NCBI GenBank assembly: GCA_030390025.1
Contig: CM059432.1
Location: 434,001-498,000, forward strand
Direction: 5' to 3'
DNA length: 64,000 bases
From: Squalus acanthias
Taxonomy: Eukaryota
Positions 4,180 through 59,152 of this stretch are shown piece after piece. The notes below the pieces were generated by a model, which was not told the DNA's origin, did not search any database, and was given only the letters and a program-made list of their open reading frames with translations. Numbering within the stretch: the stretch's first letter is position 1; each line of letters begins with the position of its first letter. A program made the position numbers and the translations under genes.

Positions 4180-4621
4180 GTGTGCACGTGTGTGTGTGTG
4201 AGTGTCTGCCCATGTGTGTGAGTGAGCATACATGTGTGTGCGCTGTATGTTTGTGCACGTGCATGTGTGCGGTATGTGAGCCATGTGTGCGTGTGTGTGT
4301 ATGGTCCTCCCCATGTGTGCACTTGTGTCTGTGTGCATAGGCACACGTGTGTGCCTATGTGAGTGTGCGTGCACGTGTGTGTGCGGTATGTGTGCGCGTG
4401 CATGTGTGTGTGTGTGTGTGCTGTGTGTGCTGTGTGTGCTGTGTGTGTGCTGTGTGTGCTGTGTGTGCTGTGTGTGTGTGTCTGCAGTGCGTGTGTGAGT
4501 TGTATGTGTGTGTGTGTACGCGTACACGTGTGTGTGTATGGTGTGTGTGTGTGTGCTGTGTGTGTACGGTGTGTGTGTGTGTGTGCTGTGTGTGTGTGTG
4601 TGTGTGTACGGTGTGTGTACG

Positions 4622-4652
<31 letters not shown>

Positions 4653-4928
4653 GTGTGTGCGAGTGTGTGTGTGTACGGTGTGTGTTATGCTGTGTGTGTG
4701 TACGGTGTGTGTGTGTGTGTGCTGTGTGTGTGTGTGTGTGTGTACGGTGTGTGTACGGTGTGTGTGTGTACGGTGTGTGTGTGTGTGTGCTGTGTGTACG
4801 GTGTGTGTGTGTACGGTGTGTGTGTGTGTGTGTGTGCAGTGTGTGCTGTGTGTGTGTGTGTGCTGTGTGTGTGTGTGTGTGTACGGTGTGTGTGTGTGTA
4901 CGGTGTGTGCGTGTGTACGGTGTGTGTG
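4180..4928. repeat. Composite (TG)n microsatellite with TACGG and GCTG interruptions; left part of the unit 1 tract, which continues at 12521-12660 and 20459-20703
   Basis: Directly visible. Confidence 0.95.
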
Positions 4929-5216
4929 AATCTTTTATTCAAACCAATAATACAAATTACATAGTAAAACCATTACATTCATCCATCAAAATACAGTACA
5001 AATACCCCCAAACAATACCACACTTTTTTTTTTATATTAAAATAATACATCTCACTTAACTCCACATAAAACAACCCATTTCAACACCACAGTGTACAAA
5101 CACATAGCACCATCACAATCCAACTAAATGCCACATATAACATCCACTCCAATAACCCAAGAAACCTGTTCCGCGCCAGTCCCACTGGCACCGCCCACCC
5201 GACCATCCACTCAATT

Positions 5217-5455
5217 GTTCTCCGTGCTGGGCCTCCCGCCCAGGCCACTCTCCTCTGGGTCTTCCACCTTGGGCCTTCTGCACCGGACCCTCCGCACCGG
5301 CATTCCCCGCGAGCACCTGGGGTGAAGCAACCGCATCTCCTGACTCCACCTCTGCCGACCAGCCGCCCCGCCCTGGGCCCCCCGCCTGGAGTTCTCCGTG
5401 CTGGGCCTCCCGCCCAGGCCACTCTCCTCCGGGTCTTCCACCTTGGGCCTCCTGC
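5217..5455. repeat. 174-bp GC-rich tandem repeat in the Tx1 3' UTR (about 1.4 copies in copy A)
   Basis: gttctccgtgctgggcctcccgcccaggcc recurs at 5217 and 5391. Confidence 0.85.
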
Positions 5456-5477
5456 GAAGCGGACAACTTGGAGTGCA

Positions 5478-8400
5478 TTAAATTAAAATAACATTTCCCG
5501 GGGAAACGATGCACTCCAGTCCCTGCGGCGCCCACCGGTCTCGGAAGGCTTCAAGTGTGCCGGCGGACACCGCATGCTCCATCTCCAGGGCCACCCGGGC
5601 GCGAACATGGCCGCGGAAGAGAGGCAGGCAATTGGGCCGAACGACCCCCTCGACCGCCCGCTGCCTGGACCTGTGAATGGCCACTTTGGCCAGGCCCAGG
5701 AGCAGTCCTACGAGGAGGTCCTCCGACCTGCTCTCTCCCCTCCGCACCAGGTGACCGTAGATCAGGAGCGTGGGACTGAAGTGCAACCAAAAAGCGAGGA
5801 GCAGCCCCTTCAAATATTCAAAGAGGGGCTGCAACCTCTCACATTCCACATAAACGTGGAACACGGACTCCTCGAGGCCGCAAAAAAGACAGGCGGCCTG
5901 GGAGTCCGTGAACCTACTTAGAAACCGATTGCACGGGACTGCTCCGTGCAACACCCTCCAAGCCATGTCCCCAATAGAAAAGGGGAGTACTCCCGCACAG
6001 AGAGCCCTCCATTGGGGACCTTCGCCTCCGCCGGACGGCAAGATAGCACGCCAAGGCGTGTCCGGACGGCAGGCGAAGATGACAAAGTGGAAAGTGTGCA
6101 GGAGCAGCCCGTACAGGAAACCCCTCCGTGCAGAACTGAAGGGCACGGAGGGCATTTCCCCGAGACGGCTCAAGTTGTGAGGCGCCGGTTCCCGAGAGGG
6201 GTTTCGGGGCCGTGCGCCGATGAGGAATTCCGTCCGAACGGAGGTCAGTTCGGACGGGATCGCCCCACGTGCTTGAGCCTCCTCGATACACCTAGTGGAG
6301 TCCGGGCCCAGTGCCACTTTCAGCAACTCGATGGCTTTGGCCGCGCGCCAGACGTCTACCCAGGAGAGGCGCCGCGCCAACTCCTCCGGCGCCATCCAGC
6401 CCGCTCCTCCGCCATCGAGCAGGTCCCTGACTCTGGTCACCTTGCCTGGCACAGCCCTGCCCTCCGCCAGCCAGCCGATCCGTCGGACGTGGAGGTGCGG
6501 ATTCCTGAACAGCGGCTCCCGAAGGAGAGCCGCCACTCCTGCCTGGAGGCGACCTGGTTCCAGACCCATAGCAGTTCCTGGTAAAAGACAGGCAGCTCCC
6601 ACAGGTAGGCTCGCGTGCGGCCCAATTCCACAAACAGGAGCTGCGTGTCGTAGTTGAGGCCGTGCATCTGGCGGAAGAAATACGTCGCCAGCGCACACCA
6701 TCTGGGAGGATTCTCGACGTAAAGGTACCTCTGCAGCGTCTGAAGACGGAAAGTCGCCGCCTGGGTGCGAAGGCAGACCAGCGCCTGACCGCCCTCCCTA
6801 AGCGGGAGACACAGAACCGCGGCAGAGACCCAGTGCTTCCTTTTGTCCCAGAAGAAGTCGATGAGCATCTTCTGTATCTTGGCGACAAACGCAGGGGGAG
6901 GGATCAAAGTGACCAACCGGTACCACAACATGGCGGCCACCAGCTGGTTTATGACCAGCGCTCGACCCCTGTAGGACAACACTCGGAGCAACCCCGTCCA
7001 GCGTCCTAGGCGAGCGGTGACCTTGGCCTCCAGCTCTTGCCAGTTCGCCGGCCAGGTGTCCTCGGCAGGGCCGAGGTAGACTCCCAAGTAGAGGAGGTGT
7101 GTTGTGCTCCAGGCGAAGGGCCTGAACTCCTCCGGCAGGGAGTCCACCCGCCACTGGCCCACCAGGAGTCCAGAACATTTCTCCCAGTTGATCCTGGCGG
7201 AGGATGCGTCCGAGTAAATCTGCTGGCATTCTCGCATCCTCCGCAGGTCGACGGGATCCGTGACCATGAGGAGCACGTCATCGGCGTAAGCCGAGAGGAC
7301 GACCTCCACGCCCGGCCCTTGCAGAGCCAGTCCCGTCAACCTCTTCCGCAAGAGGCGCAGGAAAGGCTCCACGCAAACGGCATATAACTGACCGGACATG
7401 GGGCATCCCTGACGCACCACCCTCCCGAAGCGAAGGGGCGCCGTCAAAGACCCGTTAACTTTAATCAGACACTCCGCGGCGGCGTACAGAAGTCGGATCC
7501 GGGCGACGAAATGCGTCCCGAACCCGAATGCGCGCAGAGTCCCGAAGAGATACTCGTGATCCACCCTGTCGAACGCCTTCTCCTGATCCAGGGAAAGGAA
7601 GGCGACCGACAGACCAGTCCTCTGGGAAAGGTGGACCAGGTCCCGGACCAGATGGATGTTGTCATGGATTGTCCGGCCCGGGACCGTGTAGGACTGGTCG
7701 GGGTGGATCATGTGGGCCAGCACGGTGCCGAGGCGGGCAGACATGGCCCTGGCAAAAATTTTATAGTCCGTGCTGAGGAGGGAGACCGGGCGCCAGTTTT
7801 TTAAAAGGCGGAGATCACCCCTCTTGGGCAGCAGGACAATAACCGCCCTGCGCCAAGAGAGGGGCATCTCCCCGGTCGCCAGACTTTCCCCCAGGACCCG
7901 CGCGTAGTCGCCCCCCAAGACGTCCCAGAACGCCCTGTGGAACTCCACGGTCAGCCCGTCCAGCCCCGGGGACTTTCCCCTCGAGAGCTGGCGCAGGGCG
8001 CTGGTCAGCTCCGCCAAACTTAGCGGAGCGTCCAATTCCTCGGCGCCCTCCGGGCCGACCTTCGGCAGGTCCTCCCACAAAACTCTGCGCGCATCCTCGC
8101 TGGACGGATCCGGAGAGAACAGAGCCCCGTAATAGGCCCGGGTCCCCGCGCTGATCCCCTCCGGATCCGAGACCAGAGATCCGTCGTCGGCCAGCAGCCC
8201 CAAGAGCTGCTTACGGACCCCTCGTCTTTTTTTCCAGCGAGTAGAAGAAGGGGGAGCCGCGGTCCAGGTCCCGCAGGAACTGGATCCGCGACCTCACGTA
8301 CGCGCCTCGGGACCCGACCAGCTGCAGGTCCTTCAGCGCGCCCTTCTTCTCTTCGTACACCTTCCGCAGGGCCGGGTCTTCGACGACTTGACCGAGACGG

Positions 8401-9362
8401 GACTCCAGGTCGAGCACTTCTTTCTCCAATCGCCCGACCCGGGCCTCCCGCCTCTTGGTCGACCCCTTCGCGTACTCCTGACAGAAGAGACGGACGTGAG
8501 CCTTGCCCACGTCCCACCATAGCCTCAAGGAGGGGAAGCCCCCCTGCTTCCTTCTCCAGTCGGCCCAGAACCGGCGAAACGAATCCCGGAACCGCACGTC
8601 CTCCAGCAGCAGGTTGTTAAAATGCCAGTACGCGGACCCCCCCGGCGCCTGCAACGGAGCGAGCTCCGCCCACACCAGGTGGTGGTCCGTGCACGGCACC
8701 GGCCGCATGGAAGCCGCCGGAACGCAGGAGACGTACGCCCGGGAAATATAAAGGCGGTCGATTCTGGACCTTCCTCCTCCAGACCCCACCCAAGTGAAGG
8801 CGCTGGAGTCGGGATGGAGATTTCGCCAGACGTCCACCAAGTCGAAGGACCCGACCAGGTCCCTCAACTTCACCGTCGCCGTCAGGCTTCGCGGAGGGCC
8901 CGAACGGTCCCTCGCCTCGAGGGTACAATTAAAATCCCCCCCGAGGATGATGCACTCGCCGACGTCGACGGTGCCCAGAAGAGCGGACACTTCATCGAAG
9001 AAGCGCACTTGCTGCGCACCGGGCTGGGGGGCGTACACGTTCACTAAATGGAGCGGCACGCCCCCCAGACGAACAGTGACCTGGAGCAAGCGGCCCGGCA
9101 CATGCTCCTTGACCCCCAAGATCTCCGGCTGAAAATGCGGGGCCAGCAAGATAGCCACCCCACCGGAAACGTTGGAGAGGTGACTCATGCTGACCCCTCC
9201 TCGCCACTCCAGGAGCCACGTGGCCTCGTCTCCCGGAACGGTGTGAGTTTCCTGCAGGAAGCACACCGCATGCCTCCCTTCCCGAAGGGACGAGAAGTTA
9301 TTAAATCTACGGCGTGCCTCTCTGCTGCCGTTGATGTTGAGGCTGGCTATGGTTATCTTCAT
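5478..9362 (-). pseudogene. Tx1 ORF2 (APE endonuclease / reverse transcriptase), copy A, disrupted
   Basis: Split into ORFs 8211..9380, 6437..8203 and 5478..6701. Relative to copy B it has one extra T in the T-run at 8227-8233, a 16-bp deletion at 6540/6541, and G>V in GRGVRQGCP. Confidence 0.9.
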
Positions 9363-9393
9363 GACAAGAGCATAGTGCAACCTCTACCTTACT

Positions 9394-11480
9394 CTAACGG
9401 GGGGAGGGAGCGCGGCCGCTAGTCGACCGCCACTCCCTTCCAAGCCCAGCGAGGAAATTCTGGATCCGACGCCACTCGGCCAGGTCCACGTCCCCGTCCG
9501 CGCCCATGGTTTTGACTGCGGCGCGGACGGAGCAAACGAGCAGCGCCAGATCCGACCATTTATCGATGGCCAGCCGGATTATATCCTGGCGACCCTGGCC
9601 CATGGCCACAAAGTCCCGGAGTTCCACAACGGGGATGAGGGGGGACCCGGAGGAGGGCACGAGGGCATCCGCCGCCTCACTGGCGACGGATTCCATATCA
9701 TCCTCAGTGTCCTCCGCCGGGTCCCCGTCCTCCTCCGGGGGGTCGCCATCGGCCAGCCCTACCACTGCCCTGATCCCACCCCCAGGATCGGCAGCAGAGG
9801 AGTCCTCCCTGGGCTCCTCCAGAGGCGCCGGGTCAGGAAGCGGCGGCGGCTCGGGGCCCCCCCCCGCCCCCGGCACCGGGGTGCACAGGGAAACCGGGGA
9901 GCACATTAGTACCAGTTCCCTCAACAACCCCGGCGCCAGCGTCGCAGGCGGAGTCAGGGGGCCTTCCCCTTCACCGCCACCATCCTCCGACCCAGCGGAC
10001 CGGGTACCCTGGTTATATTGCTCAACCAGGTCGAGCAGTGCCTGGGAGTGGTCCTGACCGTACACGGCGGGCTCTGCCTCATCGGCCTCGCCCGCCCCGG
10101 TCCCCAGGATGCCCGACCTGGCGAGAAACAACGGATCAGCGTAACTCCCCACCGCGGGTAGTTCCGCGGCCCCCCCCATGAGCAGGGCCTCTCCCCCATC
10201 CCCGGGAGGCACAGGCTGGACAGACTCATCTGTCATGCCCTCCCGGGGGACAGGCGACCCCTGCTGGATGTCGGTGATGGTGTCGGTGGGGGGGGGGGCA
10301 GCACCCGCGGCGGGCAACGACTCCCCTTGCGAGGGGGGACCCCGTTCCTCGCGGTCCTCCCCCTCATCCAGGATGTCGCGCCTCCTTTTCGAAGAGGAGG
10401 GACACGAAGGTTGGGAGACCTCCATGCATACCGAGGCCTCCATTCCGCTCCCCCCTGTCGATCGGTCTGCTCGGGGGTCCCGGGCCCGGTCACGGCCGCA
10501 GGTCTCGATTTTGCCGCCTTGGCGGATGCGGCCGCAGGCCCGGGCACAAGGCCCCTCGCATTCTCGAATTCCGCCGCCACCCGCGCAAGGTATAGGGGCG
10601 TAAGCTCGGGTAAGTCATTATGTATGTCAAGGGGACCCGCCTGAAGGTGTTTGCTTTTCCTCCGCGCCTTCCTTCCAATCGGACGCTCCCCCTCCCCTTC
10701 GCCGGAGGCCGCGACGGCGTTGACCTCCGGCGTCGACCGCGCATCGGGTGTCGCAGACGCGCGGACAGAAACAGGGGGAGGAGCGGCGGCGGCGCCAGCC
10801 TTGGCCGCCTCAGATGCTTTGGCGGCCTTGGAGGCGGGGCAGTTCTTTCTTATGTGCCCCACCTCCTTACAGGCGTGGCACCGCACACCGTCCGACGTCC
10901 AGAAGACGCGGTAGGCGGTCCCCTCGTGTGTTATGCTAAATGCGCCTTCCGTGTCTTCCTCCCGCGCCAGCTGGATAAACAGCAGGCGCCGGAAGGAGAA
11001 GACGTGCCGGAGGCTGGCCTCCCTCCAGCCGAGCGGGATCGGATTAATCCCCGACCTCACCTCCCCCAGTTGACGTAGGTGGGGGAGGAGGAGCTCAACC
11101 GGAACAAAGGGCGGGACATTCGACAGTATGAGTCGCTGCTCGGTGGCCTCGAGCGGATCCATCGGCAGGAACGTCCCGCCCACGGTGAGCCCCTCGGTGA
11201 CGGCCAGGGACACCGCCCGCTCCGACCGCAGGAAGAACACAGCCTTACCGTACATTTTAGAGGCCGCAACGATGGCTGAGGGGCCGACTACCCCAGCCAT
11301 GGCTTTGACGCAAGCCTCTATGGTCATGTTGGGGTGAGTGTAGCTCTTCACCCCCAGCTTTTTTGTCAATAGCCTGAAAGGCGACGGGGCAGCAGAAGCA
11401 GCGGGACCAGCTGTGGCCATGGCTGCCACACCCGCGTACGACCTTGCTTGCCCCGCCGCCGGCGAAGATGTGCTCGCCAT
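9394..11480 (-). pseudogene. Tx1 ORF1 (gag-like, CCHC knuckle), copy A, one frameshift
   Basis: ATG at 11480 (MASTSSPAAG) and CHACKEVGHIRKNC knuckle. A 1-bp deletion near 10442 relative to copy B shifts the acidic/Pro-rich C-terminus into ORF 9394..10443. Confidence 0.85.
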
Positions 11481-12947
11481 ACTGAGGTGGTATAAAGGGC
11501 TACACCCACCCCAAGTCACAGGCCGGGTGATGTTTAAGTGGCCTTGGGCTTTTTTGTCTTTTCCCCCGAGCAGAGGGGGTTGTTTTGAGAAAAAGAAGGC
11601 ACACCTCTCCCTTTTATGATTGGAATTGGGAGTGGCCTTCTCCCCTCTGCTCAATTGGGTAATAAATAAGGTTTGAGGTGCCTCGTTAGAGAGAGGCAGA
11701 GAGAGAGAGGGGGTGGGAAGGAGGAAGGGGGAAGGCCGCACGGGCCTGCTCGCCACTCAGGATAGTGGGTGGGTGGGTGCTTCCGGGGGAGGGGCACTCT
11801 CCGATGTTAAATAAAGTCTTTGTTGATGTTCTTCTGGTGGGGGGAGAAGATGTCTTCACCTGGGAAAAAATAAAGCTGGAGATGCCCAGGCTCAGTCCAC
11901 AACCAGGTCTTAACAATGTTCTAAAATGTGAAGCAATAGGCAAGGGGTGCTTGTTGATGGTGTGTGTGGCCGAGTTGTTAGCAAGAGCCACACACACTCC
12001 CCTTGCTATCCCGGTCTTCTCCTTCTTCTTTCCTCCCCCCACCTCAAATACAAAGTCTTTTGGAGAGTGCCCTTTTTAACACCCACCTCTCGATGTTGTT
12101 TTCCTTCTCGATGGCTCGCTCTCCCTCCTTCCAAGCAGATGTTGGTCCTGTTCTCCCCTCTCTCCTTCTCTCGTAATGGAGACCAGTTGGGGAGGCAGTG
12201 ATGGATAGGCTTCCCTCTGTTGTTGTTGCTGGTCTCCTCTCTCTCCTCGCCTCTCCTCTCCTCTCTCACCTCAGCAGCAGTCGTGGTTGTAGCTGTAGCT
12301 GCAGGCGTGGTGGAGGTGGAAAGGTCTCCACTCTGTCCTTCGTGGCTCCTTCTCCTTCTAGGCACAGAGAAAAGAGACCTCTCCTTTCCCCTCCTCTTCT
12401 CAGCAAACGGCGCTCACCCGTTCACGCAGCACCAAGTTGAGCTGAGTCCCTTGCAGCCTCAGCCTCTGCCTCCGTCTGTCCTCGCCTGGGTGTTTGAATA
12501 ATGGGGCCTGGGGCCGCACTCGGTGTGTGTGTGTGTGTGTACGGTGTGTGTGCTGTGTGTGTGTACGGTGTGTGTGTGCTGTGTGCTGTGTGTACGGTGT
12601 GTGTACGGTGTGTGTGTGTGTGCTGTGTGTGTGTGTGTGTGTGTGTACGGTGTGTGTGTGAATCTTTTATTCAAACCAATAATACAAATTACATAGTAAA
12701 ACCATTACATTCATCCATCAAAATACAGTACAAATACCCCCAAACAATACCACACTTTTTTTTTATATTAAAATAATACATCTCACTTAACTCCACATAA
12801 AACAATCCATTTCAACACCACAGTGTACAAACACATAGCACCATCACAATCCAACTAAATGCCACATATAACATCCACTCCAATAACCCAAGAAACCTGT
12901 TCCGCGCCAGTCCCACTGGCACCGCCCACCCGACCATCCACTCAATT

Positions 12948-13360
12948 GTTCTCCGTGCTGGGCCTCCCGCCCAGGCCACTCTCCTCCGGGTCTTCCACCT
13001 TGGGCCTTCTGCACCGGACCCTCCGCACCGGCATTCCCCGCGAGCAGCCGGGGTGAATCAACCGCATCTCCCGACTCCACCTCTGCCGACCAGCCGCCCC
13101 GCCCTGGGCCCCCCGCCTGGGGTTCTCCGTGCTGGGCCTCCCGCCCAGGCCACTCTCCTCTGGGTCTTCCACCTTGGGCCTTCTGCACCGGACCCTCCGT
13201 ACCGGCATTCCCCGCGAGCACCCGGGGTGAAGCAACCGCATCTCCTGACTCCACCTCTGCCGACCAGCCGCCCCGCCCTGGGCCCCCCGCCTGGGGTTCT
13301 CCGTGCTGGGCCTCCCGCCCAGGCCACTCTCCTCCGGGTCTTCCACCTTGGGCCTTCTGC
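12948..13360. repeat. 174-bp tandem repeat in the Tx1 3' UTR (about 2.4 copies in copy B)
   Basis: Unit starts at 12948, 13122 and 13296. Confidence 0.85.
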
Positions 13361-13382
13361 GAAGCGGACAACTTGGAGTGCA

Positions 13383-16300
13383 TTAAATTAAAATAACATT
13401 TCCCGGGGAAACGATGCACTCCAGTCCCTGCGGCGCCCACCGGTCTCGGAAGGCTTCAAGTGTGCCGGCGGACACCGCATGCTCCATCTCCAGGGCCACC
13501 CGGGCGCGAACATAGCCGCGGAAGAGAGGCAGGCAATTGGGCCGAACGACCCCCTCGACCGCCCGCTGCCTGGACCTGTTAATGGCCACTTTGGCCAGGC
13601 CCAGGAGCAGTCCTACGAGGAGGTCCTCCGACCTGCTCTCTCCCCTCCGCACCGGGTGACCGTAGATCAGGAGCGTGGGACTGAAGTGCAACCAAAAAGC
13701 GAGGAGCAGCCCCTTCAAATATTCAAAGAGGGGCTGCAACCTCTCACATTCCACATAAACGTGGAACACGGACTCCTCGAGGCCGCAAAAAAGACAGGCG
13801 GCCTGGGAGTCCGTGAACCTACTTAAAAACCGATTGCACGGGACTGCTCCGTGCAACACCCTCCAGGCCATGTCCCCAATAGAAAAGGGGAGTACTCCCG
13901 CATGGAGAGCCCTCCATTGGGGACCTTCGCCTCCGCCGGACGGCAAGATGGCACGCCAAGGCGTGTCTGGACGGCAGGCGAAGATGACAAAGTGGAAAGT
14001 GTGCAGGAGCAGCCCGTACAGGAAACCCCTCCGTGCAGAACTGAAGGGCACGGAGGGCATTTCCCCGAGACGGCTCAAGTTGTGAGGCGCCGGTTCCCGA
14101 GAGGGGTTTCGGGGCCGTGCGCCGATGAGGAATTCCGTCCGAACGGAGGTCAGTTCGGACGGGATCGCCCCACGTGCTTGAGCCTCCTCGATACACCTAG
14201 TGGAGTCCGGGCCCAGTGCCACTTTCAGCAACTCGATGGCTTTGGCCGCGCGCCAGACGTCTGCCCAGGAGAGGCGCCGCGCCAACTCCTCTGGCGCCAT
14301 CCAGCCCGCTCCTCCGCCATCGAGCAGGTCCCTGACTCTGGTCACCTTGCCTGGCACAGCCCTGCCCTCCGCCAGCCAGCCGATCCGTCGGACGTGGAGG
14401 TGCGGATTCCTGAACAGCGGCTCCCGAAGGAGAGCCGCCACTCCTGACGGGGGAGAACTCCGCCTGGAGGCGACCTGGTTCCAGACCCATAGCAGTTCCT
14501 GGTAAAAGACAGGCAGCTCCCACAGGTAGGCTCGCGTGCGGCCCAATTCCACAAACAGGAGCTGCGTGTCGTAGTTGAGGCCGTGCATCTGGCGGAAGAA
14601 ATACGTCGCCAGCGCACACCATCTGGGAGGATTCTCGACGTAAAGGTACCTCTGCAGCGTCTGAAGACGGAAAGTCGCCGCCTGGGTGCGAAGGCACACC
14701 AGCGCCTGACCGCCCTCCCTAAGCGGGAGACACAGAACCGCGGCAGAGACCCAGTGCTTCCTTTTGTCCCAGAAGAAGTCGATGAGCATCTTCTGTATCT
14801 TGGCGACAAACGCAGGGGGAGGGATCAAAGTGACCAACCGGTACCACAACATGGCGGCCACCAGCTGGTTTATGACCAGCGCTCGACCCCTGTAGGACAA
14901 CACTCGGAGCAACCCCGTCCAGCGTCCTAGGCGAGCGGTGACCTTGGCCTCCAGCTCTTGCCAGTTCGCCGGCCAGGTGTCCTCGGCAGGGCTGAGGTAG
15001 ACTCCCAAGTAGAGGAGGTGTGTTGTGCTCCAGGCGAAGGGCCTGAACTCCTCCGGCAGGGAGTCCACCTGCCACTGGCCCACCAGGAGTCCAGAACATT
15101 TCTCCCAGTTGATCCTGGCGGAGGATGCGTCCGAGTAAATCTGCTGGCATTCTCGCATCCTCCGCAGGTCGACGGGATCCGTGACCATGAGGAGCACGTC
15201 ATCGGCGTAAGCCGAGAGGACGACCTCCATGCCCGGCCCTTGCAGAGCCAGTCCCGTCAACCTCTTCCGCAAGAGGCGCAGGAAAGGCTCCACGCAAACG
15301 GCATATAACTGACCGGACATGGGGCATCCCTGACGCACCCCCCTCCCGAAGCGAAGGGGCGCCGTCAAAGACCCGTTAACTTTAATCAGACACTCCGCGG
15401 CGGCGTACAGAAGTCGGATCCGGGCGACGAAATGCGTCCCGAACCCGAATGCGCGCAGAGTCCCGAAGAGATACTCGTGATCCACCCTGTCGAACGCCTT
15501 CTCCTGATCCAGGGAAAGGAAGGCGACCGACAGACCAGCCCTCTGGGAATGGTGGACCAGGTCCCGGACCAGATGGATGTTATCGTGGATGGTCCGGCCC
15601 GGGACCGTGTAGGACTGGTCGGGGTGGATCATGTGGGCCAGCACGGTGCCGAGGCGGGCAGACATGGCCCTGGCAAAAATTTTATAGTCCGTGCTGAGGA
15701 GGGAGACCGGGCGCCAGTTTTTTAAAAGGCGGAGATCACCCCTCTTGGGCAGCAGGACGATAACCGCCCTGCGCCAAGAGAGGGGCATCTCCCCGGTCGC
15801 CAGACTTTCCCCCAGGACCCGCGCGTAGTCGCCCCCCAAGACGTCCCAGAACGCCCTGTGGAACTCCACGGTCAGCCCGTCCAGCCCCGGGGACTTTCCC
15901 CTCGAGAGCTGGCGCAGGGCGCCGGTCAGCTCCGCCAAACTTAGCGGAGCGTCCAATTCTTCGGCGCCCTCCGGGCCGACCTTCGGCAGGTCCTCCCACA
16001 AAACTCTGCGCGCATCCTCGCTGGACGGATCCGGAGAGAACAGAGCCCCGTAATAGGCCCGGGTCCCCGCGCTGATCCCCTCCGGATCCGAGACCAGAGA
16101 TCCGTCGTCGGCCAGCAGCCCCAAGAGCTGCTTACGGACCCCTCGTCTTTTTTCCAGCGAGTAGAAGAAGGGGGAGCCGCGGTCCAGGTCCCGCAGGAAC
16201 TGGATTCGCGACCTCACGTACGCGCCTCGGGACCCGACCAGCTGCAGGTCCTTCAGCGCGCCCTTCTTCTCTTCGTACACCTTCCGCAGGGCCGGGTCTT

Positions 16301-17282
16301 CGACGACTTGACCGAGACAGGACTCCAGGTCGAGCACTTCTTTCTCCAATCGCCCGACCCGGGCCTCCCGCCTCTTGGTCGACCCCTTCGCGTACTCCTG
16401 ACAGAAGAGACGGACGTGAGCCTTGCCCACGTCCCACCATAGCCTCAAGGAGGGGAAGCCCCCCTGCTTCCTTCTCCAGTCGGCCCAGAACCGGCGAAAC
16501 GAATCCCGGAACCGCACGTCCTCCAGCAGCAGGTTGTTAAAATGCCAGTACGCGGACCCCCCCGGCGCCTGCAACGGAGCGAGCTCCGCCCACACCAGGT
16601 GGTGGTCCGTGCACGGCACCAGCCGCATGGAAGCCGCCGGAACGCAGGAGACGTACGCCCGGGAAATGTAAAGGCGGTCGATTCTGGACCTTCCTCCTCC
16701 AGACCCCACCCAAGTGAAGGCGCTGGAGTCGGGATGGAGATTTCGCCAGACGTCCACCAAGTCGAAGGACCCGACCAGGTCCCTCAACTTCACCGTCGCC
16801 GTCAGGCTTCGCGAAGGGCCCGAACGGTCCCTCGCCTCGAGGGTACAATTAAAATCCCCCCCGAGGATGATGCACTCGCCGACGTCGACGGTGCCCAGAA
16901 GAGCGGACACTTCATCGAAGAAGCGCACTTGCTGCGCACCGGGCTGGGGGGCGTACACGTTCACTAAATGGAGCGGCACGCCCCCCAGACGAACAGTGAC
17001 CTGGAGCAAGCGGCCCGGCACATGCTCCTTGACCCCCAAGATCTCCGGCTGAAAATGCGGGGCCAGCAAGATAGCCACCCCACCGGAAACGTTGGAGAGG
17101 TGACTCATGCTGACCCCTCCTCGCCACTCCAGGAGCCACGTGGCCTCGTCTCCCGGAACGGTGTGAGTTTCCTGCAGGAAGCACACCGCATGCCTCCCTT
17201 CCCGAAGGACCGAGAAGTTATTAAATCTACGGCGTGCCTCTCTGCTGCCGTTGATGTTGAGGCTGGCTATGGTTATCTTCAT
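13383..17282 (-). CDS. Tx1-like ORF2 polyprotein (APE endonuclease + reverse transcriptase + C-terminal CCHC), 1299 aa from the first ATG
   Basis: Uninterrupted ORF. APE motifs SLNING, LQETH, GGDFN, SRID, TDH; RT motifs WRPVSLL, LDQEKAFDRV, RQGCPMS, YADD; C-terminal CLFCG...H...C. Confidence 0.93.
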   Translation of the reverse strand: MKITIASLNINGSREARRRFNNFSVLREGRHAVCFLQETHTVPGDEATWLLEWRGGVSMSHLSNVSGGVAILLAPHFQPEILGVKEHVPGRLLQVTVRLGGVPLHLVNVYAPQPGAQQVRFFDEVSALLGTVDVGECIILGGDFNCTLEARDRSGPSRSLTATVKLRDLVGSFDLVDVWRNLHPDSSAFTWVGSGGGRSRIDRLYISRAYVSCVPAASMRLVPCTDHHLVWAELAPLQAPGGSAYWHFNNLLLEDVRFRDSFRRFWADWRRKQGGFPSLRLWWDVGKAHVRLFCQEYAKGSTKRREARVGRLEKEVLDLESCLGQVVEDPALRKVYEEKKGALKDLQLVGSRGAYVRSRIQFLRDLDRGSPFFYSLEKRRGVRKQLLGLLADDGSLVSDPEGISAGTRAYYGALFSPDPSSEDARRVLWEDLPKVGPEGAEELDAPLSLAELTGALRQLSRGKSPGLDGLTVEFHRAFWDVLGGDYARVLGESLATGEMPLSWRRAVIVLLPKRGDLRLLKNWRPVSLLSTDYKIFARAMSARLGTVLAHMIHPDQSYTVPGRTIHDNIHLVRDLVHHSQRAGLSVAFLSLDQEKAFDRVDHEYLFGTLRAFGFGTHFVARIRLLYAAAECLIKVNGSLTAPLRFGRGVRQGCPMSGQLYAVCVEPFLRLLRKRLTGLALQGPGMEVVLSAYADDVLLMVTDPVDLRRMRECQQIYSDASSARINWEKCSGLLVGQWQVDSLPEEFRPFAWSTTHLLYLGVYLSPAEDTWPANWQELEAKVTARLGRWTGLLRVLSYRGRALVINQLVAAMLWYRLVTLIPPPAFVAKIQKMLIDFFWDKRKHWVSAAVLCLPLREGGQALVCLRTQAATFRLQTLQRYLYVENPPRWCALATYFFRQMHGLNYDTQLLFVELGRTRAYLWELPVFYQELLWVWNQVASRRSSPPSGVAALLREPLFRNPHLHVRRIGWLAEGRAVPGKVTRVRDLLDGGGAGWMAPEELARRLSWADVWRAAKAIELLKVALGPDSTRCIEEAQARGAIPSELTSVRTEFLIGARPRNPSREPAPHNLSRLGEMPSVPFSSARRGFLYGLLLHTFHFVIFACRPDTPWRAILPSGGGEGPQWRALHAGVLPFSIGDMAWRVLHGAVPCNRFLSRFTDSQAACLFCGLEESVFHVYVECERLQPLFEYLKGLLLAFWLHFSPTLLIYGHPVRRGESRSEDLLVGLLLGLAKVAINRSRQRAVEGVVRPNCLPLFRGYVRARVALEMEHAVSAGTLEAFRDRWAPQGLECIVSPGNVILI

Positions 17283-17313
17283 GACAAGAGCATAGTGCAA
17301 CCTCTACCTTACT

Positions 17314-19401
17314 CTAACGGGAGGAGGGAGCGCGGCCGCTAGTCGACCGCCACTCCCTTCCAAGCCCAGCGAGGAAATTCTGGATCCGACGCCGCTCGGC
17401 CAGGCCCACGCCCCCGTCCGCGCCCATGGTTTTGACTGCGGCGCGGACGGAGCAAACGAGCAGCGCCAGATCCAACCATTTATCGATGGCCAGCCGGATT
17501 ATATCCTGGCGACCCTGGCCCATGGCCACAAAGTCCCGGAGTTCCACAACGGGGATGAGGGGGGACCCGGAGGAGGGCACGAGGGCATCCGCCGCCTCAC
17601 TGGCGACGGATTCCATATCATCCTCAGTGTCCTCCGCCGGGTCCCCGTCCTCCTCCGGGGGGTCGCCATCGGCCAGCCCTACCTCTGCCCCGATCCCACC
17701 CCCAGGATCGGCAGCAGAGGAGTCCTCCCTGGGCTCCTCCAGAGGCGCCGGGTCAGGAAGCGGCGGCGGCTCGGGGCCCCCCTCCGCCCCCGGCACCGGG
17801 GTGCACGGGGAAACCGGGGAGCACATTAGTGCCAGTTCCCTCAACAACCCCGGCGCCAGCGTCGCAGACGGAGTCAGGGGGCCTTCCCCTTCACCGCCAC
17901 CATCCTCCGACCCAGCGGACCAGGTACCCTGGTTATATTGCTCAACCAGGTCGAGCAGTGCCTGGGAGTGGTCCTGACCGTACACGGCGGGCTCTGCCTC
18001 ATCGGCCTCGCCCGCCCCGGTCCCCAGGATGCCCGACCTGGCGAGAAACAACGGATCAGCGTAACTCCCCACCGCGGGTAGTTCCGCGGCCCCCCCCATG
18101 AGCAGGGCCTCTCCCCCATCCCCAGGAGGCACAGGCTGGACAGACTCATCTGTCATGCCCTCCCGGGGGACAGGCGGCCCCTGCCGGATCTCGGTGATGG
18201 TGTCGGTGGGGGGGGGGCAGCACCCGCGGCGGGCAACGACTCCCCTTGCGAGGGGGGACCCCGTTCCTCGCGGTCCTCCCCCTCATCCAGGATGTCGCGC
18301 CTCCTTTTCGAAGAGGAGGGACACGAAGGTTGGGAGACCTCCATGCATACCGAGGCCTCCACCTCCGCTCCCCCCTGTCGATCGGTCTGCTCGGGGGTCC
18401 CGGGCCCGGTCACGGCCGCAGGTCTCGATTTTGCCGCCTTGGCGGATGCGGCCGCAGGCCCGGGCACAAGGTCCCCTCGCATTCTCGAACTCCGCCGCCA
18501 CCCGCGCAAGGTGTAGGGGCGTAAGCTCGGGTAAGTCATCATATATGTGAAGGGGACCCGCCTGAAGGTGTTTGCTTTTCCTCCGCGCCTTCCTTCCAGT
18601 CGGACGCTCCCCCTCCCCTTCGCCGGATGCCGCGACGGCGTTGACCTCCGGCGTCGACCGCGCATCGGGTGTCGCAGACGTGCGGACAGAAACAGGGGGA
18701 GGAGCGGCGGCGGCGCCAGCCTTGGCCGCCTCAGATGCTTTGGCGGCCTTGGAGGCGGGGCAGTTCTTTCTTATGTGCCCCACCTCCTTACAGGCGTGGC
18801 ACCGCACACCGTCCGACGTCCAGAAGACGCGGTAGGCGGTCCCCTCGTGTGTTATGCTAAATGCGCCTTCCGTGTCTTCCTCCCGCGCCAGCTGGATAAA
18901 CAGCTGGCGCCGGAAGGAGAAGACGTGCCGGAGGCTGGCCTCCCTCCAGCCGAGCGGGATCGGATTAATCCCCGACCTCACCTCCCCCAGTTGACGTAGG
19001 TGGGGGAGGAGGAGCTCAACCGGAACAAATGGCGGGACATTCGATAGTATGAGTCGCTGCTCGGTGGCCTCGAGCGGATCCACCGGCAGGAAGGTCCCGC
19101 CCACGGTGAGCCCCTCGGTGACGGCCAGGGACACCGCCCGCTCCGACCGCAGGAAGAACACAGCCTTACCGTACATTTTAGAGGCCGCAACGATGGCTGA
19201 GGGGCCGACTACCCCAGCCATGGCTTTGACGCAAGCCTCTATGGTCATGTTGGGGTGAGTGTAGCTCTTCACCCCCAGCTTTTTTGTCAATAGCCTGAAA
19301 GGCGACGGGGCAGCAGAAGCAGCGGGACCAGCTGTGGCCGTGGCTGCCACACCCGCGTACGACCTTGCTTGCCCCGCCGCCGGCGAAGATGTGCTCGCCA
19401 T
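17314..19401 (-). pseudogene. Tx1 ORF1, copy B, disrupted
   Basis: ATG at 19401 and CCHC knuckle. A +1 base near 18472 and a -1 in the G-run at 18208-18217 compensate, but a stop at 18283 lies between them. Confidence 0.85.
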
Positions 19402-21009
19402 ACTGAGGTGGTATAAAGGGCTACACCCACCCCAAGTCACAGGCCGGGTGATGTTTAAGTGGCCTTGGGCTTTTTTGTCTTTTCCCCCGAGCAGAGGGGG
19501 TTGTTTTGAGAAAAAGAAGGCACACCTCTCCCTTTTATGATTGGAATTGGGAGTGGCCTTCTCCCCTCTGCTCAATTGGGTAATAAATAAGGTTTGAGGT
19601 GCCTCATTAGAGAGAGGCAGAGAGAGAGAGAGAGAGAGAGAGGGGGTGGGAAGGAGGAAGGGGGAAGGCCGCACGGGCCTATTCGCCACTCAGGATAGTG
19701 GGTGGGTGGGTGCCTCCTTGGGGGGGGGGCACTCTTCGATGATAAATAAAGTCTTTGTTGATGTTCTTCTGGTGGGGGGAGAAGATGTCTTCACCTGGGA
19801 AAAAAATAAAGCTGGAGATGCCCAGGCTCAGTCTACAACCAGGTCTTAACAATGTTCTAAAATGTGAAGCAATAGGCAAGGGGTGCTTGTTGATGGTGTG
19901 TGTGGCCGAGTTGTTAGCAAGAGCCACACACTCACACACACCCCTTGCTATCCCGGTCTTCTCCTTCTTCTTTCCTCCCCCCACCTCAAATACAAAGTCT
20001 TTTGGAGAGTGCCCTTTTTAACACCCACCTCTCGATGTTGTTTTCCTTCTCGATGGCTCGCTCTCCCTCCTTCCAAGCAGATGTTGGTCTTGTTCTCCCC
20101 TCTCTCCCTCTCTCGTAATGGAGACCAGTTGGGGAGGCAGTGATGGAAAGGCTTCCCTCTGTTGCTGTTGCTGGTCTCCTCTCTCTCCTCTCCTCTCCTC
20201 TCTCACCTCAGCAGCAGTCGTGGTTGTAGCTGTAGCTGCAGGCGTGGTGGAGGTGGAAAAGGTCTCCACTCTGTCCTTCGTGGCTCCTTCTCCTTCTAGG
20301 CACAGAGAAAAGAGACCTCTCCTTTCCCCTCCTCTTCTCAGCAAACGGCGCTCACCCGTTCACGCAGCACCGAGTTGAGCTGAGTCCCTTGCAGCCTCAG
20401 CCTCTGCCTCCGTCTGTCCTCGCCTGGGTGTTTGAATAATGGGGCCTGGGGCCGCACTCGGTGTGTGTGTGTGTGTGTACGGTGTGTGTGCTGTGTGTGT
20501 GTACGGTGTGTGTGTGTGTGTGCTGTGTGTACGGTGTGTGTACGGTGTGTGTGTGTGTGTGTGTGTGTACGGTGTGTGTACGGTGTGTGTGTGTGTGCTG
20601 TGTGTGTGTGTGTGTGTGTGTACGGTGTGTGTGTGTGTGTGTGTGCTGTGTGTGTGTGCTGTGTGTGCTGTGTGTGTACGGTGTGTGTGCTGTGTGTGCG
20701 TGCAGTGGGATGGGAAACACTTGTGCGTACTGATGGATTTGTCAGATTCCAATCCCAGACAGGGAGGTGCCCGGGGACTGAGGAATGGGACCCCAGCCTG
20801 ACTCAACACCTCCAGGGAGGGGGAAAGAGAGTGGAGGGAAATTGGGCAAACGGGAGAGCCGGGCACTTACATAGTTACATTGCGCAGCAGCTTTGGAGAA
20901 AAGATTAATATTAAAAATAGATAAGAACGAGAAAAAGTTTATTGTTCCAAAAACGGAAGGTGCAAAAGGTGCCAATAAATGAATGATATTCTCAGCTCCT
21001 TCCCCTGCA

Positions 21010-21660: not shown

Positions 21661-25045
<3,385 letters not shown>

Positions 25046-29055: not shown

Positions 29056-34196
<5,141 letters not shown>

Positions 34197-37855: not shown

Positions 37856-43072
<5,217 letters not shown>

Positions 43073-47476: not shown

Positions 47477-52648
<5,172 letters not shown>

Positions 52649-55448: not shown

Positions 55449-55706
55449 CTCTCTCTCTCTCTGGGGCAGTGGGCCTCTCTCTCTCTCTCTGGGGGCAGTG
55501 GGCCTCTCTCTCTCTCTCTCTGGGGGCAGTGGGCCTCTCTCTCTCTCTCTCTGGGGGCAGTGGGCCTCTCTCTCTCTCTCTGGGGGCAGTGGGCCTCTCT
55601 CTCTCTCTCTCTGGGGGCAGTGGGCCTCTCTCTCTCTCTCTCTCTCTGGGGGCCTCTCTCTCTCTCTCTCTGGGGGCAGTGGGCCTCTCTCTCTCTCTCT
55701 CTGGGG
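55449..55706. repeat. Minisatellite (CT)n-gggggcagtgggc, ~30 bp unit
   Basis: Directly visible; truncated by the gap. Confidence 0.95.
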
Positions 55707-55800
55707 GAAAATCCCACAAAACAAAATGGCGCCGGTTCTCTCAGCCCCGCCCCCTTGACGTCAACGGTGGAGCTTCTGTTGGCGCCGCCATTCCGGGAGA
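55704..55800. promoter_or_regulatory. Candidate CpG-rich promoter core (kB-like, YY1 x2, GC box, CRE)
   Basis: GGGAAAATCCC, CAAAATGGCG (55722), GCCCCGCCCC (55744), TGACGTCA (55756), GCCGCCATT (55784). Confidence 0.5.
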
Positions 55801-56482
55801 GAGTCCGGCCCCGGGACACAGGCCCAGAGAGAGAGTCCGGCCCCGGGACACAGGCCCAGAGAGAGAGTCCGGCCCCGGGACACAGGCCCAGAGAGAGAGT
55901 CCGGCCCCGGGACACAGGCCCAGAGAGAGAGTCCGGCCCCGGGACACAGGCCCAGAGAGAGAGTCCGGCCCCGGGACACAGGCCCAGAGAGAGAGAGAGT
56001 CCGGCCCCGGGACACAGGCCGAGAGAGAGAGTCCGGCCCCGGGACACAGGCCCAGAGAGAGAGAGAGTCCGGCCCCGGGACACAGGCCCAGAGAGAGAGA
56101 GAGTCCGGCCCCGGGACACAGGCCCAGAGAGAGAGAGAGTCCGGCCCCGGGACACAGGCCGAGGGAGAGAGTCCGGCCCCGGGACACAGGCCGAGAGAGA
56201 GAGAGTCCGGCCCCGGGACACAGGCCGAGAGAGAGAGAGTCCGGCCCCGGGACACAGGCCGAGAGAGAGAGTCCGGCCCCGGGACACAGGCCCAGAGAGA
56301 GAGTCCGGCCCCGGGACACAGGCCGAGAGAGAGAGAGTCCGGCCCCGGGACACAGGCCGAGAGAGAGAGTCCGGCCCCGGGACACAGGCCCAGAGAGAGA
56401 GTCCGGCCCCGGGACACAGGCCCAGAGAGAGAGTCCGGCCCCGGGACACAGGCCCAGAGAGAGAGTCCGGCCCCGGGACAGG
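55797..56482. repeat. Minisatellite (GA)n-gtccggccccgggacacaggccca, ~32-36 bp unit, ~20 copies
   Basis: Directly visible. Confidence 0.95.
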
Positions 56483-56871
56483 CCTCAGGCCCCCCCCCAG
56501 GTCCAATAGAGAGAAGGAGGCGGCCCGGGCCCGGCCTCAGACACCAAATCCGGGACCCTGGTCTCGGCCCAAACCCCCGGGCTTCAGTCACCGACCGCCT
56601 CGGCGGCGACAGACCTGCCCGGGCAAGGCCCTGGTCCCCGGTCTCTGGCCCGCTTCCAGCCCGCCCGCCGCAGAGTGTGTGCGGGGTGTCGGGCCCCCGG
56701 GACAGGATGGAGCCGCTCACCGCGCCCGGCCCACAGCCCTGGAAAACCAAGGTACAAACCCCCGGCCCCTCACTCTCATCATTGCAGCCTCGCTGCTCCT
56801 TGTGTTGTGAGCTGCCGAAACAGGCGGGTGTGTGTGTGATTGTTGAGATGAGAGAAAAAGTTGCGTTTCTG

Positions 56872-59152
56872 GGTCAGCGAATGGCTCAGTGGTTATCACT
56901 TTCTCCTCTGAGTCACCATGTTGTGGGTTCAAGTCCCGCTCCACAGACTGGAGCACAAAATACAGGCCAACAGTCCCAGTGTCGGTACTGAGGGAGCGCC
57001 GCACTGTCGGAGGGGCGGTACTGAGGGAGCGCCGCACTGTCGGAGGGGCGGTACTGAGGGAGCGCTGCACTGTCGGAGGGGCAGTACTGAGGGAGCGCTG
57101 CACTGTCGGAGGGGCAGTACTGATGGAGCGCTGCACTGTCGGAGGGGCAGTACTGAGGGAGCGCCGCACTGTCGGAGGGGCGGTACTGAGGGAGCGCCGC
57201 ACTGTCGGAGGGGCAGTACTGAGGGAGTGCCGCACTGTCGGAGGGGCAGTACTGAGGGAGGGCCGCACTGTCGGAGGGGCAGTACTGAGGGAGCGCCGCA
57301 CTGTCGGAGGGGCAGTACTGAGGGAGCGCCACACTGTCGGAGGGGCAGTACTGAGGGAGCGCTGCACTGTCGGAGGGGCGGTACTGAGGGAGCGCCGCAC
57401 TGTCGGAGGGGCAGTACTGAGGGAGCGCCGCACTGTCGGAGGGACGGTACTGAGGGAGCGCTGCACTGTCGGAGGGGCAGTACTGAGGGAGTGCCGCACT
57501 GTCGGAGGGGCAGTACTGAGGGAGTGCTGCACTGTCTGAGGGGCAGTACTGAGGGAGTGCCGCACTGTCTGAGGGGCAGTACTGAGGGAGTGCCGCACTG
57601 TCTGAGGGGCAGTACTGAGGGAGTGCCGCACTGTCTGAGGGGCAGTACTGAGGGAGCGCCGCACTGTCGGAGGGGCGGTACTGAGGGAGCGCCGCACTGT
57701 CGGAGGGGCAGTACTGAGGGAGCGCCGCACTGTCGGAGGGACGGTACTGAGGGAGCGCCGCACTGTCAGAGGGGCAGTACTGAGGGAGCGCCGCACTGTC
57801 GGAGGGGCGGTACTGAGGGAGCGCCGCACTGTCAGAGGGGCAGTACTGAGGGAGCGCCGCACTATCGGAGGGGCGGTACTGAGGGAGCGCCGCACTGTCG
57901 GAGGGGCAGTACTGAGGGAGCGCAGCACTGTCGGAGGGGCAGTACTGAGGGAGCGCTGCACTGTCAGAGGGGCAGTACTGAGGGAGCGCCACACTGTCGG
58001 AGGGGCAGTACTGAGGGAGTGCTGCACTGTCGGAGGGGCAGTACTGAGGGAGCGCCGCACTGTCGGAGGGGCGGTACTGAGGGAGCGCCGCACTGTCGGA
58101 GGGGCAGTACTGAGGGAGCGCCACACTGTCGGAGGGGCGGTACTGAGGGAGCGCCGCACTGTCAGAGGGGCAGTACTGAGGGAGCGCCACACTGTCGGAG
58201 GGGCGGTACTGAGGGAGCGCCGCACTGTCGGAGGGGCAGTACTGAGGGAGCGCAGCACTGTCGGAGGGGCAGTACTGAGGGAGCGCTGCACTGTCAGAGG
58301 GGCAGTACTGAGGGAGCGCCACACTGTCGGAGGGGCGGTACTGAGGGAGCGCCGCACTGTCGGAGGGGCAGTACTGAGGGAGCGCCACACTGTCGGAGGG
58401 GCGGTACTGAGGGAGCGCCGCACTGTCGGAGGGGCAGTACTGAGGGAGCGCAGCACTGTCGGAGGGGCAGTACTGAGGGAGCGCCGCACTGTCGGAGGGG
58501 CGGGTACTGAGGGAGCGCTGCACTGTCAGAGGGGCGGTACTGAGGGAGCGCCGCACTGTCGGAGGGGCGGTACTGAGGGAGCGCCGCACTGTCGGAGGGG
58601 CAGTACTGAGGGAGAGCGCCGCACTGTCGGAGGGGCAGTACTGAGGGAGTGCGGCACTGTCGGAGGGGCAGTACTGAGGGCACTGTCGGAGTGGCAGTAC
58701 TGAGGGAGCGCCGCACTGTCGGAGGGGCAGTACTGAGGGAGTGCGGCACTGTCGGAGGGGCAGTACTGAGGGAGTGCCGCACTGTCGGAGGGGCGGTACT
58801 GAGGGAGTGCCGCACTGTCTGAGGTGCCGTCTTTCGGACGAGACGTTAAACTGAGGCCCCGTCTGCGCTCTCAGGTGGATGTAAAAGATCCCACGGCACT
58901 ATTTTGAAGGAGATGAGGGGAGTTCTCCCCAATGCTCTGGCCAATATTTATCCCTCGAGCAACCTCACTAAAAAAACAGGTTATCTGGTCATTATCACAT
59001 TGCTGTTTGTGGGAGCTTGCTGTGTGCTTATTGGCTGCCACGTTTCGAACACTACAACAGTGACTGCGCTTCAAATATACTTCATTGGCTGTCAAGGGCT
59101 TTGGGACGTCTGGTGGTCGTGAAAGGCGTTATATGAATGCAAATCTTTCTTT
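56872..59152 (+). mobile_element. tRNA-derived DeuSINE (SacSINE1-like) with expanded internal minisatellite
   Basis: A box TGGCTCAGTGG (56882) and B box GGTTCAAGTCC (56926). After the array the body resumes (gaggtgccgtctttcggacgagacgttaaac...aaaagatccca) and ends in a LINE-like tail gtgaaaggcgttatatgaatgcaa. Confidence 0.8.
56983..58824. repeat. 33-bp minisatellite cagtactgagggagcgccgcactgtcggagggg, ~55 copies
   Basis: Directly visible, contiguous units without spacers. Confidence 0.97.

What the first reader, a model, noticed from the sequence alone, without database searches (positions are those of the whole stretch)
4918..20471. Candidate microsatellite-specific Tx1 retrotransposon: two full-length copies inserted at the same register in a (TG)n-TACGG tract
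Seen: copy A (4929-12520) and copy B (12661-20458) lie in the same orientation, 140 bp apart, inside the composite TG tract. Both right junctions are ...gccgcact|CGGTGTGTG. Both left junctions end in CGG(TG)n, giving apparent target-site duplications of 11 bp (cggtgtgtgtg) and 13 bp (cggtgtgtgtgtg), each starting at the same TA|CGG interruption. The three paralogous tracts are empty. Established: the Tx1 clade includes sequence-specific families (Tx1L/Tx2L, Keno in U2 snRNA genes, Dewa in tRNA spacers, Kibi and Koshi in TC and TTC repeats). Inference: this is a young family whose APE domain targets (CA)n/(TG)n, possibly the TACGG-punctuated variant. Whether it is already catalogued cannot be judged here.
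Basis: partly seen in the sequence, partly recalled or inferred. Interest (0 to 1): 0.85.

Follow-up and report, generated by a model that had tools for sequence, protein, structure and literature searches.

The report
CAC-landing Tx1 LINE nesting in relatives
The two elements are copies of a young Tx1-type jumping gene that almost always lands just before the letters CAC rather than in this microsatellite, whose long copies mostly sit inside the leader hairpin of related Tx1 elements, and whose RNA likely runs on into, and pairs with, the landing site.

Summary
Two minus-strand Tx1-clade LINEs (98.9% identical; ORF2 50% identical to Xenopus Tx1L) lie where described. The microsatellite/TACGG reading fails. 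Of 223 exact 3' ends in the genome, 219 abut CAC. Only A and B sit at the TACGG register, and only 7 ends follow 5.5 or more TG units. Elsewhere, insertions carry 12-17 bp duplications starting CAC. The hot spot is the (TG)n/(CA)n hairpin in the 5' UTR of the family itself and of a sister Tx1 (43 of 223 by exact pattern; 16 of 21 long versus 1 of 39 short sampled copies). The two right junctions are one event: the C of 'CGG' is the element's own end, A and B share a private 5' tip, and the 140-bp spacer duplicates B's right flank, although B's body comes from a younger source. Six poly(A)-tailed copies show the RNA reading 7-13 bases past the end into CAC..., so RNA-target pairing likely sharpens a loose endonuclease preference. 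The scan noted this nesting before on other DNA (e1-8036630). New member of a known, transposon-targeting kind.

The parts
4929..12521 (-). Copy A, full-length Tx1-clade LINE, older (31 private substitutions); ORF1 (ATG 11480) and ORF2 (ATG 9362) both frameshifted
12661..20459 (-). Copy B, full-length Tx1-clade LINE; body of the young subfamily, 5' tip shared with A
13383..17282 (-). ORF2 of B, open, 1299 aa from ATG: APE endonuclease, RT (YADD), C-terminal zf-RVT; 50% identical to Xenopus Tx1L ORF2
17314..19401 (-). ORF1 of B with CCHC knuckle; frame broken by 1-bp indels in the assembly (695 aa in intact genomic copies such as L098, L124, L128, L140)
19869..19953 (-). 5' UTR hairpin of B with a (TG)n arm and a (CA)n arm; the homologous hairpin in other copies and in the sister family is the main insertion hot spot of this family
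   Evidence: (z -4.3 RNA, -3.8 DNA)
11933..12011 (-). 5' UTR hairpin of A
12661..12675 (-). 3' terminus of B: AATAAA signal 5 bases before the end, no poly(A) tail; followed by target CAC
4929..4943 (-). 3' terminus of A, same structure
12948..13360 (-). 174-bp tandem repeat in the 3' UTR of B (A has one unit fewer)
12522..12660 (.). Spacer between A and B: a duplicate of the first part of B's right flank, not an independent stretch of tract
4375..4928 (.). Left part of the composite (TG)n/TACGG tract
20460..20702 (.). Right part of the composite tract
21664..25045 (+). Host context: cytoplasmic-type actin gene (coding exons 21664-21789 and 24041-25045) of the first of four tandem ~9.1-kb units; the tract lies ~1 kb upstream of its ATG

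Best explanation
A and B are copies of a young Tx1-clade LINE that inserts immediately before a short CAC(C/A)C motif with 12-17 bp target duplications and accumulates as long copies in the (TG)n/(CA)n hairpin of its own and a sister Tx1's 5' UTR; its endonuclease likely nicks loosely at A|CAC-type sites and its read-through RNA likely pairs with the nicked strand to start reverse transcription. SHOWN: the CAC rule, the duplications, the hot spots, poly(A)-tailed copies that include 7-13 flank bases beginning CAC. INFERRED: transcripts are cut and polyadenylated downstream of the AATAAA that lies 5 bases before the element end, so the RNA ends ...AGAUU-CAC(C/A)C..-A(n); after the APE nick the freed strand anneals to the RNA's CAC(C/A)C and copying starts exactly at the element end, which is why almost no copy has a poly(A) tail. 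The actin-unit TG tract is hit only because it offers a CAC every two bases. INFERRED for this locus: A inserted first; a younger-subfamily RNA was later primed 140 bp beyond A's 5' end, and its cDNA was joined by copying the homologous 5' tip of A plus the 140 bp next to it, giving B its A-type tip and the duplicated spacer.
For: 219 of 223 exact 3' ends follow GTG on the + strand. 24 of 38 sampled copies outside repeats of this family have a 10+ bp duplication, 22 starting CAC, 2 CTC; lengths 12-17 except one tandem pair. +4 C 18 of 35, +4 G 0 of 35, +5 C 21 of 35 (p 8e-6 against local CAC background); -1 A in 12 of 22 (p 0.002), which the RNA (U at -1) cannot supply and so points to the enzyme. 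Hairpin arms: 44 pattern matches, one a read-through copy, so 43 of 223; 16 of 21 long vs 1 of 39 short sampled copies (Fisher 2e-9; 13 of 18 vs 1 of 39 without the three sense-arm chimeras, 4e-8); host flanks differ by median 2.3% and 5.0% while inserts differ by 0.65% (9 loci), so mostly separate insertions. Six loci carry end + CAC... + poly(A), the read-through matching the own 5' end or the UTR arm in five; three of them have A-starting duplications. L125: target copy begins TGA, 3' copy begins CAC, i.e. RNA-templated. C4 array: 21 listed 3' ends, short copies with different 5' breakpoints separated by one repeated duplication. Homology-type 5' joining has a second example: L135 has an older-subfamily leader up to the hairpin (43 of 423 differences from L140) on a young body (10 of 7239). 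B's left flank matches the right-hand tract, not A's left flank.
Against: RNA templating is clear in only 1 copy (L125; L091 ambiguous) among the 18 re-examined. No biochemistry: enzyme and RNA contributions to CAC are not separated. Host and insert distances correlate weakly (Spearman 0.34, p 0.04, non-independent pairs), so some nested copies may have been duplicated together. The excess of long copies in hairpins could be survival bias rather than targeting. A and B also share one private site deep in ORF1 (position 1516), and A, B and the third actin-unit copy L108 share other sites, so gene conversion has blurred their history. 14 of 38 copies gave no 10+ bp duplication (4 further candidates).
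Confidence: 0.68

Rival explanations
1. Endonuclease-only targeting: the APE domain recognises A|CAC(C/A)C, the RT starts at a fixed RNA position set by 3' UTR structure, and read-through sequence plays no part.
For: -1 A bias (12 of 22); CTC/CAA exceptions keep the target base in both duplicate copies (L106, L136); the sister family shows a related, stricter junction (AACAC in 100 of 100 listed); Tx1L EN is reported to read ~10 bp (PMC1919474, Discussion, citing Christensen 2000).
Against: RNA demonstrably extends into CAC... (6 poly(A) loci); L125 has CAC that is absent from its target copy; the preferred +4/+5 bases match the commonest read-through (CACCC/CACAC).
Confidence: 0.2
2. CAC is simply the element's own 3' tail and targets are chosen only by 3-5 bases of microhomology after a non-specific nick (as for L2/CR1-type tails; recalled).
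For: RNA carries CAC; motif is short; most short copies are scattered.
Against: CAC is present in the 5' copy of the duplication, so it pre-existed (22 of 24); -1 A bias; strong hot spots and repeated re-use of one site on C4.
Confidence: 0.08
3. One reading: a (CA)n/(TG)n-microsatellite-specific, possibly TACGG-specific, family with two independent insertions at one register.
For: A, B and a third copy (L108, inverted actin unit 60 kb away) lie in this tract type; both left junctions are 4-5 repeats from TACGG, a position held by 111 of 651 CAC sites in the three empty tracts.
Against: 2 TACGG-register and 7 (TG)5.5+ ends genome-wide against 223+ copies; L108 is at TACAG(TG)4 with a four-C 5' end; right junctions are one copied event.
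Confidence: 0.02
4. For the local tandem only: one insertion duplicated by unequal crossover (or a haplotype misjoin in the assembly), with B later overwritten by gene conversion from a young copy.
For: Identical 5' tip and right flank; shared private sites 72 and 1516; host is a tandem array.
Against: B lacks A's alleles at nearly all informative sites from position 271 to the 3' end; B's left flank derives from the right-hand tract, so the crossover would have to fall in ~13 bases.
Confidence: 0.2

Closest known systems
Tx1L of Xenopus laevis (type element of the Tx1 clade; UniRef YTX2 record, P0018)
   Same: ORF2 50% identical over 1303 aa; RT groups with it at 100/100; APE-RT-zinc finger layout; inserts into another mobile element (Tx1D, per PMC4494074 Introduction).
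   Different: Host here is the 5' UTR of Tx1 elements themselves, on both strands of a hairpin; most short copies are dispersed at a 3-5 base motif.
Tx1-Mar, Tx1-8_Crp, Tx1-4_AMi, Tx1-9_AMi of crocodilians (PMC4494074, sections 15-16 read)
   Same: Preference for other transposons; two hot spots in one host element used in opposite orientations.
   Different: Hosts there are Mariner, LTR and Harbinger elements, and the two hot spots have no similarity; here they are the two arms of one inverted repeat in a Tx1 leader.
Kibi (TC)n, Koshi (TTC)n, crocodilian (TTCC)n/(TTTC)n Tx1; R1-clade MinoAg1 (AC)n and Waldo (ACAY)n (PMC4494074, PMC3812793, passages read)
   Same: APE-type LINEs found in simple repeats; Mino/Waldo use AC-rich repeats.
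   Different: Only about 3% of copies here follow a long TG run (7 of 223+); Mino and Waldo are R1 clade.
SART1Bm / R1Bm priming by RNA-target annealing (PMC7265360, passages read)
   Same: Three-base RNA-target matches proposed to start reverse transcription at internal RNA positions; 3' transduction from read-through RNA.
   Different: SART1 copies normally end in poly(A); here tail-less, CAC-primed junctions are the rule (6 poly(A) loci found).

Membership tests
Tx1 clade | Two ORFs: ORF1 with CCHC knuckle, ORF2 with APE, RT and C-terminal zinc finger | tested here: met
   Pfam Exo_endo_phos, RVT_1, zf-RVT; zf-CCHC just under cut-off; knuckle motif in intact ORF1; catalytic motifs present
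Tx1 clade | RT phylogeny with Tx1L | tested here: met
   100/100 clade with Tx1L, sturgeon and turtle proteins in an 18-row tree; 50% full-length identity
Tx1 clade | Target-primed insertion with target-site duplications and 5' truncation | tested here: met
   24 of 38 dispersed copies with 10+ bp duplications; 39 of 60 copies truncated
Microsatellite-specific Tx1 (Kibi/Koshi type) | More than 20% of flanks are the microsatellite (criterion in PMC4494074 Methods) | tested here: not met
   7 ends after (TG)5.5+ and 2 at TACGG versus 223+ copies; 1 of 60 sampled
Microsatellite-specific Tx1 (Kibi/Koshi type) | Phylogenetic position beside Kibi/Koshi | not testable with these tools
   No Kibi/Koshi sequence was returned; Repbase/Dfam not available
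Transposon-targeting Tx1 (Tx1L, Tx1-Mar type) | More than 20% of flanks are one transposon type | tested here: met
   17 of 60 sampled (28%); 43 of 223 by an exact pattern that misses variants (19%), so near the threshold genome-wide
Transposon-targeting Tx1 (Tx1L, Tx1-Mar type) | Endonuclease cleaves the target sequence specifically in vitro | not testable with these tools
   needs a nicking assay

The most novel reading that the evidence does not exclude
Target choice in this family is partly programmed by RNA and inherited through the flank: a donor nested in a Tx1 leader hairpin (or in tandem before its own 5' end) makes RNA ending in that site's CACCCC/CACAC, which favours new insertions at like sites, while 5' ends are closed by homology with the resident element. 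That would be a self-reinforcing, protein-independent route by which Tx1 families acquire and switch targets, here caught between a strict sister family and a loose derivative.
Probability: 0.2. Interest if true: 0.7.

Novelty: new member of a known kind. Interest (0 to 1): 0.36.

Why it matters
It removes a high-scored false lead (no TACGG- or (CA)n-specific retrotransposon) and leaves a testable pair: two close Tx1 families in one genome, one strict (AACACCAGGT in 90 of 100 listed ends) and one loose (CAC), with intact copies of the loose one and natural read-through products. That pair could separate how much of Tx1 target choice is made by the APE domain and how much by RNA-target pairing, an open point for site-specific LINEs.

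Tried and rejected
TACGG register and microsatellite specificity: rejected. A and B as sister copies: rejected for the body. A separate SINE sharing the 3' end: ten copies with a different 3' UTR turned out to be a variant subfamily attached to ORF2 in L121, not a SINE. Rfam search of four loci covering the sister family's landing site: 0 matches at E<=1, so its Penelope/hammerhead identity is taken from earlier scan notes and my recall, not shown here. Expression: no RNA holder listed on record; four runs laid as contigs, RNA status guessed; in X1 and X2 one contig runs past the element end through CAC into unrelated flank, which is no evidence of transcription. alignment used wrong coordinates for two rows and is void; replaced by single-sequence folds. 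crashed; repeated. PDB search gave only L1-type endonucleases and chimeras, no Tx1 structure among 10 hits. Literature: searches found no description of a Tx1 family that targets CAC, (CA)n or a Tx1 5' UTR; Kojima and Fujiwara 2004, Christensen 2000, Anzai 2005 and the STITCHR survey (DOI recalled) were not held, supplements and Fig. 3 target labels of PMC4494074 could not be read, and Repbase/Dfam cannot be searched, so prior cataloguing is not excluded.
Full report
Observation. Copies A (4929-12521) and B (12661-20459) are minus-strand elements 98.9% identical inside a TG tract with TACGG interruptions. The tract belongs to the first of four ~9.1-kb tandem units, each with a cytoplasmic-type actin gene whose ATG lies ~1 kb downstream; the other three tracts are empty. 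B's ORF2 is open (1299 aa from ATG; APE, RT, zf-RVT), 50% identical over its length to Xenopus Tx1L ORF2 and grouped with it at 100/100. A's ORF2 and both ORF1s carry 1-16 bp indels. The nearest named hits include a shark and a ray protein, so the host is likely a cartilaginous fish (inference). Among 21 long genomic copies examined, four have both ORFs intact (L098, L124, L128, L140) and most differ from B by 0.4-1.2%: a young family.

Genome-wide target. The 25-base 3' terminus occurs 223 times; 219 are preceded on the + strand by GTG, i.e. followed by CAC in element sense. The TACGG(TG)n register occurs twice, at A and B; 5.5 or more TG units precede only 7 ends, 5 of them UTR-hairpin arms. 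I fetched 60 copies from the first 100 listed sites (large contigs; the C4 array, the window's two copies and several neighbours or later-listed sites were left out) and read both ends: 13 in the TG arm and 4 in the CA arm of a Tx1 5' UTR hairpin, 1 in tandem before the own 5' end, 1 in a TG tract (L108, an inverted actin unit 60 kb away), 3 read-through poly(A) copies, 38 elsewhere. Of the 38, 35 begin with CAC; 24 show a duplication of 10+ bases (12-17, one tandem pair apart), 22 starting CAC and 2 CTC, so CAC was in the target before insertion. Against local CAC background, +4 is C or A (G 0 of 35), +5 is C (21 of 35, p 8e-6) and -1 is A (12 of 22, p 0.002). On C4, 21 listed ends form an array of short copies with different breakpoints separated by one repeated duplication, i.e. 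re-use of a regenerated site, partly amplified afterwards.

Hot spot. Each element carries at 19869-19953 (B) an inverted repeat with a (TG)n arm and a (CA)n arm (z -4.3 as RNA, -3.8 as DNA), kept in diverged relatives. Both arms offer CAC, on opposite strands. 43 of 223 ends lie in such arms by an exact pattern (44 matches less one read-through copy; 34 TG arm, 9 CA arm). Long copies concentrate there: 16 of 21 versus 1 of 39 short ones (13 of 18 without three chimeric sense-arm cases). Most hosts are a sister Tx1 (~80% identical); host flanks differ more than the inserts (2.3% and 5.0% vs 0.65%). The sister is stricter: AACAC follows its 3' end in 100 of 100 listed matches and AACACCAGGT in 90 (hand count; 586 matches in all). 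Earlier scan notes call that site a Penelope-like tail (e1-7857660, e1-7852016) and one already describes this nesting (e1-8036630); I found these after my own tests and did not verify the Penelope identity (empty).

RNA end. Nearly all copies lack poly(A), and AATAAA lies 5 bases before the end. Six loci have end + 7-13 bases beginning CAC + A-run; in five the extra bases match the element's own 5' end or the UTR arm, the places where donors sit, and three have A-starting duplications. So transcripts read into the flank (shown by these retro-copies). In L125 the target copy begins TGA while the 3' copy begins CAC, as expected if RNA paired further in and templated the first bases. The -1 A bias cannot come from RNA. 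I therefore infer a loose APE preference plus RNA-target pairing; short RNA-target annealing has been proposed for SART1Bm (PMC7265360, passages read), and Tx1L EN is reported to read about 10 bp (PMC1919474, Discussion read).

The A-B tandem. B's body carries young-subfamily alleles, A older ones with 31 private changes: two sources. But both have the long 5' form with two C's and a private base at position 72 (0 of 38 other records); their right flanks agree for 57 bases and the whole spacer matches B's right flank. The 'CGG' is at least partly the element's end (C in 27 of 27; four C's in 24 of 27). B's left junction maps to a (TG)10 run present in the right tract. Most likely B was primed 140 bp beyond A and closed its 5' end by copying A's tip and the adjacent flank; L135 shows the same kind of host-leader/young-body chimera. 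Unequal crossover with conversion, or a misjoin, stays possible.

Comparison and verdict. Tx1 families that prefer other transposons or microsatellites are known (PMC4494074 Introduction, Methods passage, sections 15-16; PMC3812793 and PMC3747384 passages). By the 20% criterion of PMC4494074 this family is not microsatellite-specific and is about at or above threshold for a transposon target. Nine paper searches found no account of this target, but key papers, supplements and Repbase/Dfam were out of reach.

Noticed in passing
window 21664-25045, 29059-34196, 37859-43072, 47480-52648; L167:1575-2576: Tandem array of cytoplasmic-type actin genes with identical second-exon protein in four units and only one coding intron (after codon 42); a further inverted unit (99% aa, ~92% nt) lies ~70 kb upstream.
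   Followed up: partly
G000:C4:43928424-43935402 (L073-L090): Array of 21 short 5'-truncated 3' ends of this family, each followed by the same target duplication.
   Followed up: partly
L033, L035, L040, L043-L050, L058: A group of long-form 5' ends on small contigs shares one upstream flank that itself contains an inverted copy of the element's 5' tip ~350 bp away; probably one insertion amplified with a larger repeat.
   Followed up: no
L036-L038, L042 (G000:C2628:203650-234762): Head-to-tail array of full-length copies joined by CAC(AC)nCCC.
   Followed up: partly
L093, L097, L100, L102, L117, L121, L122, L146, L147, L149: Variant subfamily with a different distal 3' UTR but the same terminus and the same CAC rule.
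   Followed up: partly
L091, L105, L107, L108, L126, L139: ORF1 is broken at the same place (418 + 324 aa pieces) in six copies: shared source mutation or recurrent assembly error.
   Followed up: no
window 55449-58824: Three adjacent minisatellites (31, 32 and 33 bp units), not related to the finding.
   Followed up: no
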